A DNA stretch of 24,211 bases from Polyangium sp. (GTDB taxonomy: Bacteria > Myxococcota_A > Polyangia > Palsa-1104): contig JANWLJ010000243.1 in assembly GCA_025450955.1 (NCBI GenBank), positions 1 through 24,211 on the forward strand, read 5' to 3'. How positions within the stretch are numbered: position 1 is the stretch's first letter; each line of letters begins with the position of its first letter. The notes below the pieces were generated by a model, which worked only from the letters and a program-made list of their open reading frames with translations, did not search any database and was not told the DNA's origin. The position numbers and the translations under genes were made by a program. Shown one piece after another: positions 11,204-13,135 of the stretch.

Positions 11204-13135
11204 ATGGGGGATCTCCTCGACGCGGCGGTTCCGAGCTTAAATCCGGAGCTCGAAGTGGTTGCCGCGCCGGACGGAACACTGGTCGCGCGGCTCGCGCCGA
11301 ATCGCGCGGCGATGTTCGAAGGACCGGCCGCCAAGCTCCTTCGCCGACTCATCCCGCTCGTCGACGGTGCGAGCTCGGTCGAGAAAATCATAGAGAGGCT
11401 CGGCCCCGGAGTGCCTCCGCGGATCGCGCGCCAGCTTTTGGGACAGCTGGTCGGCACGGTGTTGATCTTCGATGCGGCCGCGCCGGCGCCAGCCGAGCGG
11501 CCGCGCGGAATCGCAGTGCTGTCCAACGGCGCCCTCGGCGAGATTCTCACCCGGCGACTGCGCGAAGCGCAGATCGCGGAGTGCACCGAGATTCGAGTCG
11601 GAGAGCTCGAAGGCCCGAACCGCGCGCCGGCCAGCCCGACGGTCGCGCGCGGCACCCGGCTCACGCTGGCGAACGGGGACGGGCAGCGCCTGACGACGGC
11701 GTGTCGCGGCGAGCTTGCGAGAGAGCACGACTTCGTGGTTTGCGCCCTGGAAGGAGTTCCCCTTCAGTGGATTCTCGAGGTGAACCAGGCGGCCCTCGAA
11801 GCGCCGGAGCGGACCTGGCTGTTCGTGGTCGCCGGACCCTCTGAGATTCTGGTCGGCCCGACGATTGTCGGCGGGCAGCCCCCGTGCTTTTTCTGCACCC
11901 GGCTCGAAGGCTTCGAAAACCAGGCGCTCCTCGCGAGCGTGGTTCCTTCCTTCGGAGCATACACACTCGCGGATCTTCCGCGCGGCAGACTGCTCGCGGA
12001 GCTCGCCGCCGGCGAGGTGCTCAAGGAGGCCGCGGCCTGGTTCGATCCGGTTTGCCGCCCGCGCCTGCGCGGCAGCACCCTCGCCATCGACTCCGAGCAG
12101 ATTAGCGCCCGCCGCCCGGCTCGCTCATCGGCGCATTGTCCCGCCTGCGCGAGCTACCGCGATCGTCCGGCTCCCGTCGGCTTTCGTTGGTCCGAGCCGC
12201 TCGCGCTCGAGCCAGCGGGCGGACGCGACCGCGATCGGTCGCCGCGCTTCTGGTCGCCCGTCACCCGGATTTTTCAAAGTCTCGCCGCCCGCGGCGCCGA
12301 CCAGCAGCCGCATGGAACCGGCACTCTTCGCGAGCACCTGACCGGCACGTGGAGAATCCTGTCGGCCTGGCGTCGCACCGAAAGCTTGCAGCTCGCCGGT
12401 CTGCTGCACAGCGGATACGGCACCGACATCTTCGAGGTGGGCCTGTTTTCCGAGGGCGAGCGCCGCGAGATCGCGCAGCTCATCGGGCCGGCCGCGGAGG
12501 AGTTGGTGATGCTATGTTGCACGGTCGACCGCGCTCACCTCTATTCGTCGCTCGCGTCGCTCGACGCGCTCTCCGCGGGGCTGACAGTGCGCAACTGGAG
12601 GACCGGAGAGCTCATGCGGCTCGATGCTGGCCGGGCGGCGGAGCTGATCACGCTCGAGATCGCCAACCTCGCCGATCAGGTTCACGATGGACGCGGGAGC
12701 CCTGGGGTTTGGATGGCCCAAAGCGCTCGCTGGATGCGACTCATCCGGTCGGTGGATTCGGACCCGCCACCGATCTTCGACGCGGGCCGCGGTGGAATTA
12801 CCGTCGAAGACGAAGCGCGGGCGCGAACCAGCTATCTAAAGGTGATTTCGGACCCGCTCGGCGATCGATGCGCGGCTCGGCGCGAGCTCGAAGAGGTCGT
12901 AGCCCTCAATCCGTGGATCGGCGAGCCGCACATTTTCCTGGGAGAGCTGGCGCTTCGCGACGGCCGCTCTGCCGAGGCGCTGCACCAGGGGCGCGCCGGG
13001 GCGGACTTGCTGGCAGCGTGGGGAACGGCGTGGGACAAGCGGGAGCAATGGAGCGATTGGGTCTTTCGAGCCGCGACGCTGTGCCGCGCGGCCGAGCAGG
13101 CGCTCGCGACGGCCGACCTAGGAGACGGTTCGTGA
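11204..13135 (+). CDS. Fusion of a ThiF/RRE-like leader-binding region, an HD-like (DUF6817-type) domain and a TPR-like tail (643 aa)
   Basis: The N-terminal half parallels the 8347-9516 protein (LIPLVDGASSVEKI; EVNQAAL...VGPTIV; CFFC; CPAC). The middle has GTLREHLTGTWRILSAW...AGLLHSGYGT. The C-terminus has ARRELEEVVALNPWIGEPHIFLGELAL (TPR-like). ATG 11204 is preferred over the TTG at 11165, which is the -35 box. Confidence 0.8.
   Translation: MGDLLDAAVPSLNPELEVVAAPDGTLVARLAPNRAAMFEGPAAKLLRRLIPLVDGASSVEKIIERLGPGVPPRIARQLLGQLVGTVLIFDAAAPAPAERPRGIAVLSNGALGEILTRRLREAQIAECTEIRVGELEGPNRAPASPTVARGTRLTLANGDGQRLTTACRGELAREHDFVVCALEGVPLQWILEVNQAALEAPERTWLFVVAGPSEILVGPTIVGGQPPCFFCTRLEGFENQALLASVVPSFGAYTLADLPRGRLLAELAAGEVLKEAAAWFDPVCRPRLRGSTLAIDSEQISARRPARSSAHCPACASYRDRPAPVGFRWSEPLALEPAGGRDRDRSPRFWSPVTRIFQSLAARGADQQPHGTGTLREHLTGTWRILSAWRRTESLQLAGLLHSGYGTDIFEVGLFSEGERREIAQLIGPAAEELVMLCCTVDRAHLYSSLASLDALSAGLTVRNWRTGELMRLDAGRAAELITLEIANLADQVHDGRGSPGVWMAQSARWMRLIRSVDSDPPPIFDAGRGGITVEDEARARTSYLKVISDPLGDRCAARRELEEVVALNPWIGEPHIFLGELALRDGRSAEALHQGRAGADLLAAWGTAWDKREQWSDWVFRAATLCRAAEQALATADLGDGS

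What the first reader, a model, noticed from the sequence alone, without database searches (positions are those of the whole stretch)
11204..13135. Leader-binding (ThiF/RRE-like) domain fused to an HD-like DUF6817-type domain and TPRs: candidate new RiPP-modifying enzyme
The N-terminal ~320 aa repeat the architecture of the cluster's ThiF-like protein, with both CxxC pairs intact. It is joined to a His-containing domain (LREHL...LLHSGYGT, ~12320-12430) that I recognise as an uncharacterised HD-like family. Known: enzymes fused to leader-binding domains usually act on the precursor. Inference: the HD-like domain carries out an undescribed modification, or the ThiF half also serves as partner for the second YcaO.
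Basis: partly seen in the sequence, partly recalled or inferred. Interest (0 to 1): 0.85.

Follow-up and report, generated by a model that had tools for sequence, protein, structure and literature searches.

The report
Leader-binding domain fused to SmaX-type oxygenase
This gene fuses a peptide-recognition domain to an iron enzyme of a family shown in 2025 to turn hydroxy-aspartate into aminomalonate, so it most likely edits the single aspartate in the cluster's cysteine-rich peptides rather than doing unknown chemistry.

Summary
The 643-aa ORF (11204-13135, + strand) has four parts. The first is an N-terminal RRE-like winged helix. The second is a non-catalytic E1/ThiF-like domain with both CxxC pairs. 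The third is a DUF6817 HD-fold domain. The fourth is a three-repeat TPR tail. At least seven relatives from independent metagenomes share this architecture, so it is not an assembly artefact.

DUF6817 is no longer uncharacterised. SmaX (Kim et al., JACS 2025, PMC12186529) is a mono-iron HD oxygenase that cleaves beta-hydroxy-Asp, made by an Fe/2OG partner, to aminomalonate. All seven residues essential in SmaX are present here with matching spacing and are near-invariant in the family.

The gene overlaps (GTGA) a JmjC hydroxylase gene, and this pairing recurs in 6 of 7 relatives' loci. The precursor cores read SC(D/N)CTSCSCV. The most likely function is therefore leader-guided Asp to hydroxy-Asp to aminomalonate conversion on a thiazole/thioamide peptide.

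The idea that the ThiF half partners the second YcaO finds no comparative support: one relative's cluster has no YcaO at all.

The new element is the architecture, an E1-like leader-binding module on a SmaX enzyme with a JmjC-type partner. The scan has seen SmaX-like domains in other fusions on other DNA, but not this one. I rate it a new variant of a known kind, of moderate interest.

The parts
11204..13135 (+). Fusion gene, 643 aa from ATG 11204. An alternative TTG start at 11165, preceded by GGGAG, would add 13 aa.
   Evidence: ORF. Same architecture in P0005, P0007, P0015, P0017, P0019, P0022 and P0024.
11246..11458 (+). RRE-like winged helix, residues about 15-85: three strands followed by three helices.
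   Evidence: DSSP of the model gives E16-20, E26-30, E34-38, H40-52, H59-65 and H72-80, at pLDDT only 50-70. BLASTP against the N-terminus of the cluster's ThiF-like protein gives 31% identity, E 7e-6. Weak profile match to the PbtF RRE, E 0.39.
11501..12169 (+). E1/ThiF-like domain, residues about 100-322, probably non-catalytic. The glycine loop reads SNGALG.
   Evidence: VIA-align: MoeB Z 14.8, MccB 14.5, McbB 13.2. Foldseek: LynD 6e-8. Profile against PDB: TruD 5e-7. There is no hit to the ATP-binding part of ThiF/MoeB HMMs, which the cluster's own ThiF-like protein does hit.
11885..11896 (+). First CxxC pair (C228, C231).
   Evidence: Invariant in 8 of 8 fusion relatives. Aligned to the CxxC of TruD/LynD and of the cluster's ThiF-like protein.
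12137..12148 (+). Second CxxC pair (C312, C315).
   Evidence: Present in 6 of 8 relatives. Aligned to CTAC of the cluster's ThiF-like protein.
12251..12793 (+). SmaX-type HD-fold oxygenase domain (DUF6817), residues about 350-530. Predicted Fe ligands are H378, H402 and N488. Predicted substrate residues are H370, T407, R443 and Q492.
   Evidence: PF20680, E 2.7e-22. VIA-align Z 9.2 to the HD-domain small alarmone hydrolase 7qoe over residues 346-542. Residue conservation in 73 homologues. Spacing equals that of SmaX H31/H39/H63/T68/R104 and N143/Q147.
12800..13123 (+). TPR tail, residues about 533-640, with family-wide motifs NPWxGEP and WGTAWDKR. It is an integral part of the SmaX-like module.
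   Evidence: VIA-align Z 10-11.5 to TPR structures, for example 1na3 at rmsd 1.5 A. Stand-alone homologues of 250-350 aa align across residues 355-630. W610 is conserved in 73 of 73, E574 in 72 and D611 in 71.
13132..14361 (+). JmjC/Cupin_8 Fe(II)/2OG oxygenase, the presumed Asp beta-hydroxylase partner. Its GTG start overlaps the fusion's TGA stop, and an AGGAG lies 8 nt upstream.
   Evidence: PF08007 at 1.9e-11 and PF13621 at 1.4e-9. H141-x-D143 and H218 are invariant among the five neighbours of fusion genes. Sequence shown.
10729..10899 (-). Precursor 1, 56 aa. Leader contains ELEDR. Core is ...GCGCSCSCDCTSCSCVVTF.
   Evidence: ATG and GGAGG read.
10551..10727 (-). Precursor 2, 58 aa. Core is ...GACACTTSCDCTSCSCVAWCVA.
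10360..10533 (-). Precursor 3, 57 aa. Core is ...GACACTTSCNCTSCSCVGWASSS, with Asn where the other two have Asp.
8347..9516 (-). The cluster's own ThiF-like/SagC-like leader-binding protein, a paralogous architecture (context).
   Evidence: PF00899 at 1.4e-13. TIGR03882 at 50 bits, above its cut-off.
1665..8343 (-). Context genes: YcaO (SagD type) 7060-8343; SagB dehydrogenase 6174-7046; YcaO (SagD type) 4871-6181; PqqD-M50 protease 3600-4874; ABC-2 permease 2932-3747; thioamide-type YcaO 1665-2993. A TfuA gene lies downstream of 1665.

Best explanation
The protein is a leader-guided SmaX-type oxygenase.

Its N-terminal half, an RRE winged helix plus a zinc-ribbon-bearing and catalytically dead E1-like domain, holds the acidic ELEDR-type leader of the three precursors.

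Its C-terminal half, a mono-iron HD-fold domain plus TPR, carries out the second step of a two-enzyme cascade. First, the translationally coupled JmjC Fe(II)/2OG enzyme beta-hydroxylates the single Asp in the invariant core stretch SC-D-CTSCSC. [quoted passage not shown] The net mass change is -14 Da relative to Asp, and the residue is prone to decarboxylation.

Shown here: the domain architecture and folds, the residue conservation, the conserved gene pairing, and Asp in the cores.

Inferred: leader binding by the N-terminal half, the identity of the target residue, the chemistry (by homology to SmaX), and the order relative to azole and thioamide formation.
For: (1) PF20680 matches at 79 bits. 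SmaX, the only characterised member, converts beta-hydroxy-Asp to aminomalonate and needs a preceding Fe/2OG hydroxylase (PMC12186529).

(2) The seven residues whose mutation abolishes SmaX activity (H31, H39, H63, T68, R104, N143, Q147) correspond to H370, H378, H402, T407, R443, N488 and Q492. The offset is exactly 339 for the first five and 345 for the last two. They are conserved in 61-72 of 73 homologues. H402 is followed by Ser, not Asp, in 71 of 73, as expected for the Asp-less SmaX site.

(3) The fusion's stop overlaps the start of a JmjC gene whose HxD...H triad is intact. A JmjC gene flanks the fusion gene in L002, L003/L004, L005, L006 (fragment) and L007-L009, which is every locus with enough flank.

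(4) Independent link to Asp hydroxylation: roughly 40 of the best 150 homologues carry the HD+TPR module at the N-terminus. All 10 that I sampled are fused to PF05118 aspartyl/asparaginyl beta-hydroxylase. Other homologues sit next to TauD or JmjC genes.

(5) Two of the three precursor cores have one Asp at an otherwise invariant position.

(6) The N-terminal half has the fold of RiPP leader-binding E1-like proteins. The same N-domain subfamily is fused to Trp-halogenase domains in another genome, as expected for a portable substrate-recruiting module.
Against: - No biochemical data exist for this protein or any E1-fused relative.
- I could not obtain the SmaX sequence, so the residue mapping rests on spacing plus conservation, not on a direct alignment.
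- The partner hydroxylase here is of the JmjC_2/Cupin_8 type. Its residue specificity is unknown, and JmjC enzymes also hydroxylate Arg, His, Lys and Asn.
- The third precursor has Asn at the position, which a carboxylate-dependent cleavage would not process.
- The SmaX substrates are Gly-flanked Asp, whereas here Asp is flanked by Cys.
- The leaders also contain many Asp and Glu residues.
- The structure prediction of the protein with precursor 2 gave no verdict.
- The RRE part of the model has low confidence.
Confidence: 0.6

Rival explanations
1. The architecture is the same but the chemistry differs. The HD domain processes a different JmjC-hydroxylated residue, such as beta-hydroxy-Asn or a hydroxylated Cys/Ser/Thr-derived unit. 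Alternatively it performs another oxidative cleavage or decarboxylation, so the product is not aminomalonate.
For: The partner is a JmjC_2/Cupin_8 enzyme, whereas the hydroxylase domains fused to DUF6817 in the homologues sampled are of the AspH type. One precursor has Asn at the site. The E1-fused proteins fall outside the AspH-fused clade in the tree of the HD+TPR module. The Asp is flanked by Cys rather than Gly.
Against: All four predicted substrate-binding residues of SmaX, including the Arg that would hold the carboxylate, are conserved. The family is linked to Asp/Asn beta-hydroxylases by repeated fusion. Cupin_8 enzymes are known to beta-hydroxylate Asp and Asn; FIH does so (established knowledge, not tested here).
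Confidence: 0.2
2. The E1-like half is, possibly in addition, the activating or leader-presenting partner of the second azoline-forming YcaO (4871-6181), which has no ThiF-like gene of its own next to it.
For: The cluster has two SagD-type YcaOs and only one stand-alone ThiF-like gene. The N-terminal half has the same architecture as that protein and as the E1-like domains of LynD/TruD.
Against: The fusion family occurs without any YcaO (L007-L009), or with only a TfuA-dependent YcaO (L003). The constant neighbour is the JmjC gene. The gene lies in a separate two-gene operon divergent from the YcaO operon. The family profile (A2) did not pick up the cluster's own ThiF-like protein at E 1e-5, but it did find halogenase fusions at 4e-30. 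The N-domain therefore belongs to a distinct subfamily attached to tailoring enzymes.
Confidence: 0.1
3. The fusion is non-enzymatic (a scaffold, chaperone or immunity protein), or the ORF is an artefact.
For: There are no experimental data. The E1-like domain lacks ATP-binding motifs.
Against: Every catalytic residue known from SmaX is retained. The ORF is uninterrupted, and the architecture recurs in at least seven independent metagenomic representatives.
Confidence: 0.03

Closest known systems
SmaX with SmaO (Asp to beta-hydroxy-Asp to aminomalonate cascade; Kim et al., J Am Chem Soc 2025, PMC12186529)
   Same: The Pfam family is the same (DUF6817). The HD-like fold lacks the Asp of the HD dyad. 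The two His and one Asn predicted Fe ligands and the four substrate residues are all present. The gene is adjacent to an Fe(II)/2OG hydroxylase in a RiPP cluster. The paper already lists such pairs in linear azol(in)e peptide and thioamitide clusters.
   Different: Here the enzyme carries an N-terminal extension of about 340 aa, an RRE plus E1-like domain, which the paper's main text does not mention. The partner is a JmjC_2/Cupin_8 enzyme. The candidate Asp is flanked by Cys that are destined for azoles, not by Gly. One congener has Asn.
N-terminal RRE + E1-like domains of cyanobactin heterocyclases LynD/TruD, McbB of microcin B17 synthetase, and SagC/ocin-ThiF-like proteins
   Same: It has a winged-helix leader-binding element followed by a degenerate E1 fold with CxxC zinc sites.
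   Different: In those systems the domain works with, or is fused to, a YcaO cyclodehydratase. Here it is fused to an HD-fold oxygenase, and in a related genome to flavin halogenases. TIGR03882 and Pfam ThiF thresholds are not reached.
PhnY/PhnZ and TmpA/TmpB (Fe/2OG hydroxylase followed by an HD-domain mixed-valent diiron oxygenase)
   Same: The logic is the same: hydroxylate next to an acid group, then have an HD-fold iron enzyme cleave oxidatively.
   Different: Those enzymes cleave C-P bonds with a diiron site of four His and two Asp. This family has one predicted Fe site (2 His, 1 Asn) and would cleave a C-C bond in a peptide-bound residue.
DUF6817-AspH fusion proteins (HD + TPR + PF05118), about 40 of the best 150 homologues
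   Same: They share the same HD+TPR module with the same conserved motifs.
   Different: In those proteins the hydroxylase is fused C-terminally and no leader-binding domain is present. They form a separate clade (SH-aLRT 95).

Membership tests
DUF6817 / SmaX-type atypical HD-domain Fe(II) oxygenase | Match to Pfam PF20680 above the gathering score | tested here: met
   79.1 bits against a cut-off of 25.2, residues 360-443.
DUF6817 / SmaX-type atypical HD-domain Fe(II) oxygenase | HD-superfamily fold | tested here: met
   Residues 346-542 of the model (pLDDT above 90) align to the HD-domain small alarmone hydrolase 7qoe at Z 9.2 over 154 residues. Z values in this range call for caution with helical domains.
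DUF6817 / SmaX-type atypical HD-domain Fe(II) oxygenase | Mono-iron site of two His plus one Asn, with no Asp after the second His (SmaX H39, H63, N143) | tested here: met
   H378, H402-S403 and N488 are present, with the same spacing as in SmaX. They are conserved in 71, 72/71 and 72 of 73 homologues. The mapping rests on spacing, not on alignment to SmaX itself.
DUF6817 / SmaX-type atypical HD-domain Fe(II) oxygenase | Substrate-contacting residues H31, T68, R104 and Q147 of SmaX | tested here: met
   H370 (70 of 73), T407 (61 T plus 9 S), R443 (67) and Q492 (71).
DUF6817 / SmaX-type atypical HD-domain Fe(II) oxygenase | Paired with an Fe(II)/2OG hydroxylase gene | tested here: met
   The JmjC gene overlaps the stop codon. 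A JmjC gene is adjacent in 6 of 7 relatives' loci; the seventh locus is too short to tell.
DUF6817 / SmaX-type atypical HD-domain Fe(II) oxygenase | Fe(II)- and O2-dependent conversion of peptidyl beta-hydroxy-Asp to aminomalonate | not testable with these tools
   This needs co-expression or an in vitro assay with mass spectrometry.
RiPP leader-binding RRE + E1-like proteins (TOMM leader-binding protein, ocin-ThiF-like) | HMM match above the cut-off (TIGR03882, or Pfam ThiF PF00899) | tested here: not met
   TIGR03882 gives 27.5 bits against a cut-off of 36.9, and PF00899 gives no hit. The same sub-threshold match appears in 6 of 7 relatives.
RiPP leader-binding RRE + E1-like proteins (TOMM leader-binding protein, ocin-ThiF-like) | E1/ThiF fold with a cysteine zinc site | tested here: met
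   MoeB Z 14.8, MccB 14.5, McbB 13.2. LynD at 6e-8 by Foldseek. C228/C231 and C312/C315 are aligned to the CxxC pairs of the cluster's ThiF-like protein.
RiPP leader-binding RRE + E1-like proteins (TOMM leader-binding protein, ocin-ThiF-like) | N-terminal three-strand, three-helix RRE | tested here: inconclusive
   The order of secondary-structure elements is right, but pLDDT is only 50-70. BLASTP against the N-terminus of the cluster's ThiF-like protein gives E 7e-6. The Pfam winged-helix hit is only E 0.035.
RiPP leader-binding RRE + E1-like proteins (TOMM leader-binding protein, ocin-ThiF-like) | Binds the precursor leader | tested here: inconclusive
   The complex prediction with precursor 2 gave no verdict. 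A binding assay is needed.
Catalytic E1/ThiF/MoeB/MccB adenylating enzymes | Nucleotide-binding glycine loop and the following Asp/Arg motif | tested here: not met
   The loop reads SNGALG. The segment after strand 2 is disordered in the model (residues 135-149). There is no hit to the ATP-binding part of ThiF/MoeB models, whereas the cluster's ThiF-like protein hits them.
TPR repeat proteins | TPR sequence profile or TPR fold | tested here: met
   The sequence profile is not significant (TPR_4 E 0.1). The fold matches: Z 10-11.5 and rmsd 1.5-1.7 A to 1na3 and 3ma5 over residues 537-635.
Mixed-valent diiron HD oxygenases (PhnZ, TmpB, MIOX) | Four His and two Asp ligating two irons, including the HD dyad | tested here: not met
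   The dyad position is H402-S403, and Ser occupies it in 71 of 73 homologues.

The most novel reading that the evidence does not exclude
The N-terminal half may represent a distinct, portable subfamily of catalytically dead E1-like leader-recognition modules. Unrelated tailoring enzymes have recruited it: the SmaX-type HD oxygenase here, and flavin Trp-halogenases in a genome of the same class. In this cluster it could do more than bind the leader. By E1-E1 heterodimerisation with the ThiF-like/YcaO azole synthetase, it could dock the oxygenase into that complex, so that aminomalonate formation is coupled to heterocyclisation of the flanking Cys. The product would be an azole/thioamide peptide with an aminomalonate-derived unit, a combination not yet described.
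Probability: 0.15. Interest if true: 0.65.

Novelty: new variant of a known kind. Interest (0 to 1): 0.45.

Why it matters
The result changes the question. An unknown enzyme in an odd cluster becomes a specific, testable prediction: an azole- and thioamide-rich peptide whose one Asp is converted to aminomalonate, a rare, metal-chelating and decarboxylation-prone residue.

It also shows two further things. SmaX-type oxygenases can obtain leader dependence by fusing to an E1-like recognition domain. That domain type is not restricted to YcaO partners.

Both points are useful for genome mining, because Pfam sees only DUF6817 in these proteins. They are also useful for engineering leader-guided tailoring enzymes.

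If the prediction fails, the JmjC + HD pair in thioamide and azole clusters would point to new chemistry.

Tried and rejected
- Word-index homologue searches, with the whole protein and with the N-domain profile, returned only the protein itself.
- No relative was found with the whole protein in 40 related genomes. With the N-domain profile, only 2 of 400 other genomes of the phylum sample had a match.
- The search for related loci failed twice: no conserved stretch in the alignment, and no confirmed hits.
- The single-sequence AlphaFold2 model was useless (pLDDT 35). It was replaced by the model built on a 73-row alignment.
- Complex prediction of the fusion with precursor 2 gave no verdict, which is neither support nor evidence against binding.
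- I tried to recognise SmaX itself among the hits by its published residue numbers and found no exact match. The paper's supplementary tables are not held. I therefore could not check whether its linear azole peptide or thioamitide examples already include this fused architecture.
- ORF 10585-11190 (+) was rejected as a gene. It is the antisense of the three precursor genes and has no family hit.
- An assembly or frameshift artefact was rejected, given the recurring architecture.
- I considered a catalytic adenylating role for the E1-like domain and rejected it, because the nucleotide-binding motifs are absent.
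Full report
**What is there**

The window is a GC-rich (about 65%) RiPP cluster.

The minus strand carries one long operon:
- three precursor genes (10360-10899);
- a CIA30-domain gene;
- a ThiF-like/SagC-like gene (8347-9516);
- a SagD-type YcaO (7060-8343);
- a SagB dehydrogenase (6174-7046);
- a second SagD-type YcaO (4871-6181);
- a PqqD-M50 protease (3600-4874);
- an ABC-2 permease;
- a thioamide-type YcaO (1665-2993);
- a TfuA gene.

Divergent from it, behind a roughly 300-nt intergenic region, lies a two-gene plus-strand operon. 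It holds the finding (11204-13135, 643 aa) and a JmjC/Cupin_8 oxygenase (13132-14361). The GTG start of the JmjC gene overlaps the TGA stop of the fusion, and an AGGAG sits 8 nt upstream.

**Checking the observation**

DUF6817 (PF20680) matches residues 360-443 at 79 bits, against a cut-off of 25.

The N-terminal half gets no Pfam ThiF hit and only a sub-threshold TIGR03882 match (27.5 versus 36.9 bits).
- BLASTP against the cluster's ThiF-like protein gives 31% identity over residues 6-100 (E 7e-6) and a second segment around the first CxxC.
- hhalign of a profile of eight relatives against that protein gives 90% probability, E 1.5e-6, over 268 columns. CFFC aligns to CHHC and CPAC aligns to CTAC.
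- The same profile finds TruD (5e-7), LynD (1e-6), MoeB, MusD and MccB in the PDB.
- An AlphaFold2 model built on a 73-row alignment (pLDDT 82) matches LynD, TruD, PaaA, MccB, MusD, MoeB and McbB by Foldseek. By VIA-align it matches MoeB at Z 14.8, MccB at 14.5 and McbB at 13.2 over residues 100-322.

Residues 16-80 of the model have the strand-strand-strand-helix-helix-helix order of an RRE, but at low confidence.

The TPR claim fails by sequence profile (E 0.1). It holds by fold: residues 533-643 match many TPR structures at Z 10-11.5, for example 1na3 at rmsd 1.5 A.

The HD-like claim holds. Residues 346-542 match an HD-domain small alarmone hydrolase at Z 9.2.

**Not an artefact, and not unique**

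A full HMMER scan of 1.84 billion representatives gave 1,828 hits. The unit spanning residues 355-630 (HD plus TPR) is a single conserved module. It occurs in four settings:
- as stand-alone proteins of 250-350 aa;
- as the N-terminal half of proteins of about 540-630 aa;
- in at least seven representatives with the same N-terminal E1-like domain as here (P0005, P0007, P0015, P0017, P0019, P0022, P0024);
- once fused to a methyltransferase (P0016).

The first CxxC is invariant in 8 of 8 proteins with this architecture.

**What the HD domain does**

A literature search for DUF6817 returned one paper: Kim et al., JACS 2025 (PMC12186529). It reports the following:
- SmaX, a DUF6817 protein, is an atypical HD-domain enzyme with a single Fe(II) bound by H39, H63 and N143.
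- SmaX oxidatively cleaves beta-hydroxy-Asp, made by the Fe/2OG enzyme SmaO, to aminomalonate in a RiPP precursor.
- H31, H39, H63, T68, R104, N143 and Q147 are each required for activity.
- Fe/2OG-SmaX pairs occur in graspetide, lanthipeptide, triceptide, linear azole peptide and thioamitide clusters and next to NRPSs.

In the window's protein, H370, H378, H402, T407 and R443 lie exactly 339 residues beyond the first five SmaX positions. N488 and Q492 lie 345 beyond the last two. In 73 homologues these columns are conserved as follows: H 70, H 71, H 72, T 61 (plus S 9), R 67, N 72 and Q 71. The residue after H402 is Ser in 71 of 73, so the family lacks the Asp of the HD dyad, as described for SmaX.

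I could not align to SmaX itself, because its sequence is in a supplement that is not held. The correspondence is therefore by spacing and conservation.

**Independent links to Asp hydroxylation**

All ten homologues I sampled that carry the module at the N-terminus are fused to PF05118, aspartyl/asparaginyl beta-hydroxylase, at E 1e-43 to 1e-51. About 40 of the best 150 homologues have the module at the N-terminus.

The closest stand-alone homologue (P0006) sits between a TauD gene and an adenylation-carrier pair.

Another stand-alone homologue (P0014) lies in a YcaO-TfuA cluster with two JmjC genes and a methyltransferase.

**Neighbourhoods of the E1-fused relatives**

A JmjC_2/Cupin_8 gene is directly adjacent in the following loci:
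- L003/L004, where it lies upstream and YcaO and TfuA are also present;
- L005, where it lies downstream;
- L007-L009, where it lies downstream and overlaps;
- L002, where it is divergent;
- L006, where a 75-aa fragment matches the JmjC HMM at E 1.8e-6.

L010 is too short to tell.

The five full-length JmjC neighbours share an invariant HxD...H triad.

The L007-L009 cluster encodes a 41-aa peptide, ThiF, DUF455, the fusion, JmjC and a C39-peptidase ABC exporter. It has no YcaO. The constant partner of the fusion is therefore the hydroxylase, not a cyclodehydratase.

The N-domain profile did not find the cluster's own ThiF-like protein at E 1e-5. It did find two proteins in a genome of the same class in which the domain is fused to Trp-halogenase domains, with a Cupin_8 gene between them (E 4e-30 and 1e-21). 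The domain thus behaves as a portable substrate-recruiting module.

In a tree of the HD+TPR module, the AspH-fused proteins form one clade (SH-aLRT 95). Six of the eight E1-fused proteins fall together in a 12-row group (SH-aLRT 92) with some stand-alone proteins.

**Substrate**

The three precursors share an acidic leader ending in ELEDR and a core with the invariant stretch SC(D/N)CTSCSCV. The variable position is Asp in two precursors and Asn in one.

That Asp is the obvious target, but this is an inference. The leaders also contain Asp, and SmaO/SmaX act on Gly-flanked Asp. The Asn congener would be expected to stop at hydroxylation or to remain unmodified.

In L017, the open reading frame upstream of the YcaO consists of repeats of GAAIHDAAR, each with one Asp. 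In L007, the 41-aa peptide ends in NVRDN. Both are compatible with Asp as the target but are not strong evidence.

**Mechanism proposed (confidence about 0.6)**

The RRE/E1-like half binds the leader. The JmjC enzyme beta-hydroxylates the core Asp. The mono-iron HD domain then cleaves C-beta/C-gamma to give aminomalonate.

The E1-like domain is very probably non-catalytic. Its glycine loop reads SNGALG, the following motif region is absent or disordered, and ThiF/MoeB models do not match it although they match the cluster's ThiF-like protein.

The role of the TPR is unknown. Its motifs (NPWxGEP, WGTAWDKR) are conserved family-wide, so it belongs to the oxygenase module. It may bind the peptide or the hydroxylase.

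A structure prediction of the fusion with precursor 2 gave no verdict.

**Novelty**

The enzyme family, the cascade and its presence in azole and thioamide RiPP clusters are published. Three things appear undescribed, at least in the paper's main text, which does not contain the terms RRE, ThiF or E1-like:
- the fusion of a SmaX-type oxygenase to an E1-like leader-binding domain;
- the JmjC-type partner;
- the Cys-flanked target in a triple-YcaO cluster.

The scan has previously noted SmaX-like domains fused to other partners on other DNA, but not this architecture.

Verdict: new variant of a known kind, of moderate interest.

Noticed in passing
window 10360-10899 (-): There are three tandem precursor genes of 56, 58 and 57 aa, with ELEDR-type acidic leaders and cores sharing SC(D/N)CTSCSCV. 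The plus-strand ORF 10585-11190 is their antisense and is not a gene.
   Followed up: partly
L015 (G339:C20:366000-385900): 8368-11142 (+), 11152-12144 (-), 12164-14722 (-): In a genome of the same class, the same E1-like N-domain (profile E 4e-30 and 1e-21) is fused to Trp-halogenase domains in two large proteins. A Cupin_8/JmjC gene lies between them. This looks like leader-guided RiPP halogenases using the same recognition module.
   Followed up: partly
L007:7063-16077 (also L008, L009): This RiPP-like cluster has no YcaO. It encodes a 41-aa peptide ending in NVRDN, ThiF, a 157-aa protein, DUF455, the E1-DUF6817 fusion, an overlapping JmjC gene, a 150-aa protein and a C39-peptidase ABC exporter. 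I do not recognise its class.
   Followed up: no
L017:472-7325: A thioamide-type cluster (YcaO, TfuA) carries a stand-alone DUF6817 gene, a methyltransferase and two JmjC genes. The ORF upstream of the YcaO is built of GAAIHDAAR repeats, so it may be a multi-core precursor.
   Followed up: no
window 13999-14358 (+), C-terminal 120 aa of the JmjC protein: There is a weak winged-helix signal (MarR E 0.006). JmjC_2 proteins with RRE-like domains in RiPP contexts are mentioned in PMC12710340, so the hydroxylase may carry its own leader-binding element.
   Followed up: partly
window 3600-4874 (-): A PqqD-like domain is fused to an M50/HExxH membrane protease. It resembles the daptide biosynthesis protease model (NF041824, E 1e-56) but scores below that model's cut-off. 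It is probably the leader peptidase.
   Followed up: no
window 23664-24209 (-): An ORF running off the window end matches the eukaryotic-type pepsin-like aspartyl protease family (PF00026, E 2e-6; TAXi_C), which is unusual in a bacterium.
   Followed up: no
window 20815-23673 (-): A 952-aa protein has AAA_16 ATPase, TPR and C-terminal Trans_reg_C (OmpR-type DNA-binding) domains. It is a large AfsR/SARP-like regulator that might control the cluster.
   Followed up: no
window 9534-10424 (-): A CIA30/CBM11-like domain protein is encoded between the precursors and the ThiF-like gene. That is an odd component for a RiPP operon, and its role is unknown.
   Followed up: no
window 11165 vs 11204 (+): The start of the fusion gene is ambiguous. 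TTG 11165 is preceded by GGGAG, while ATG 11204 has a weaker upstream purine run. Relatives vary at the N-terminus, so the alignment does not decide.
   Followed up: partly
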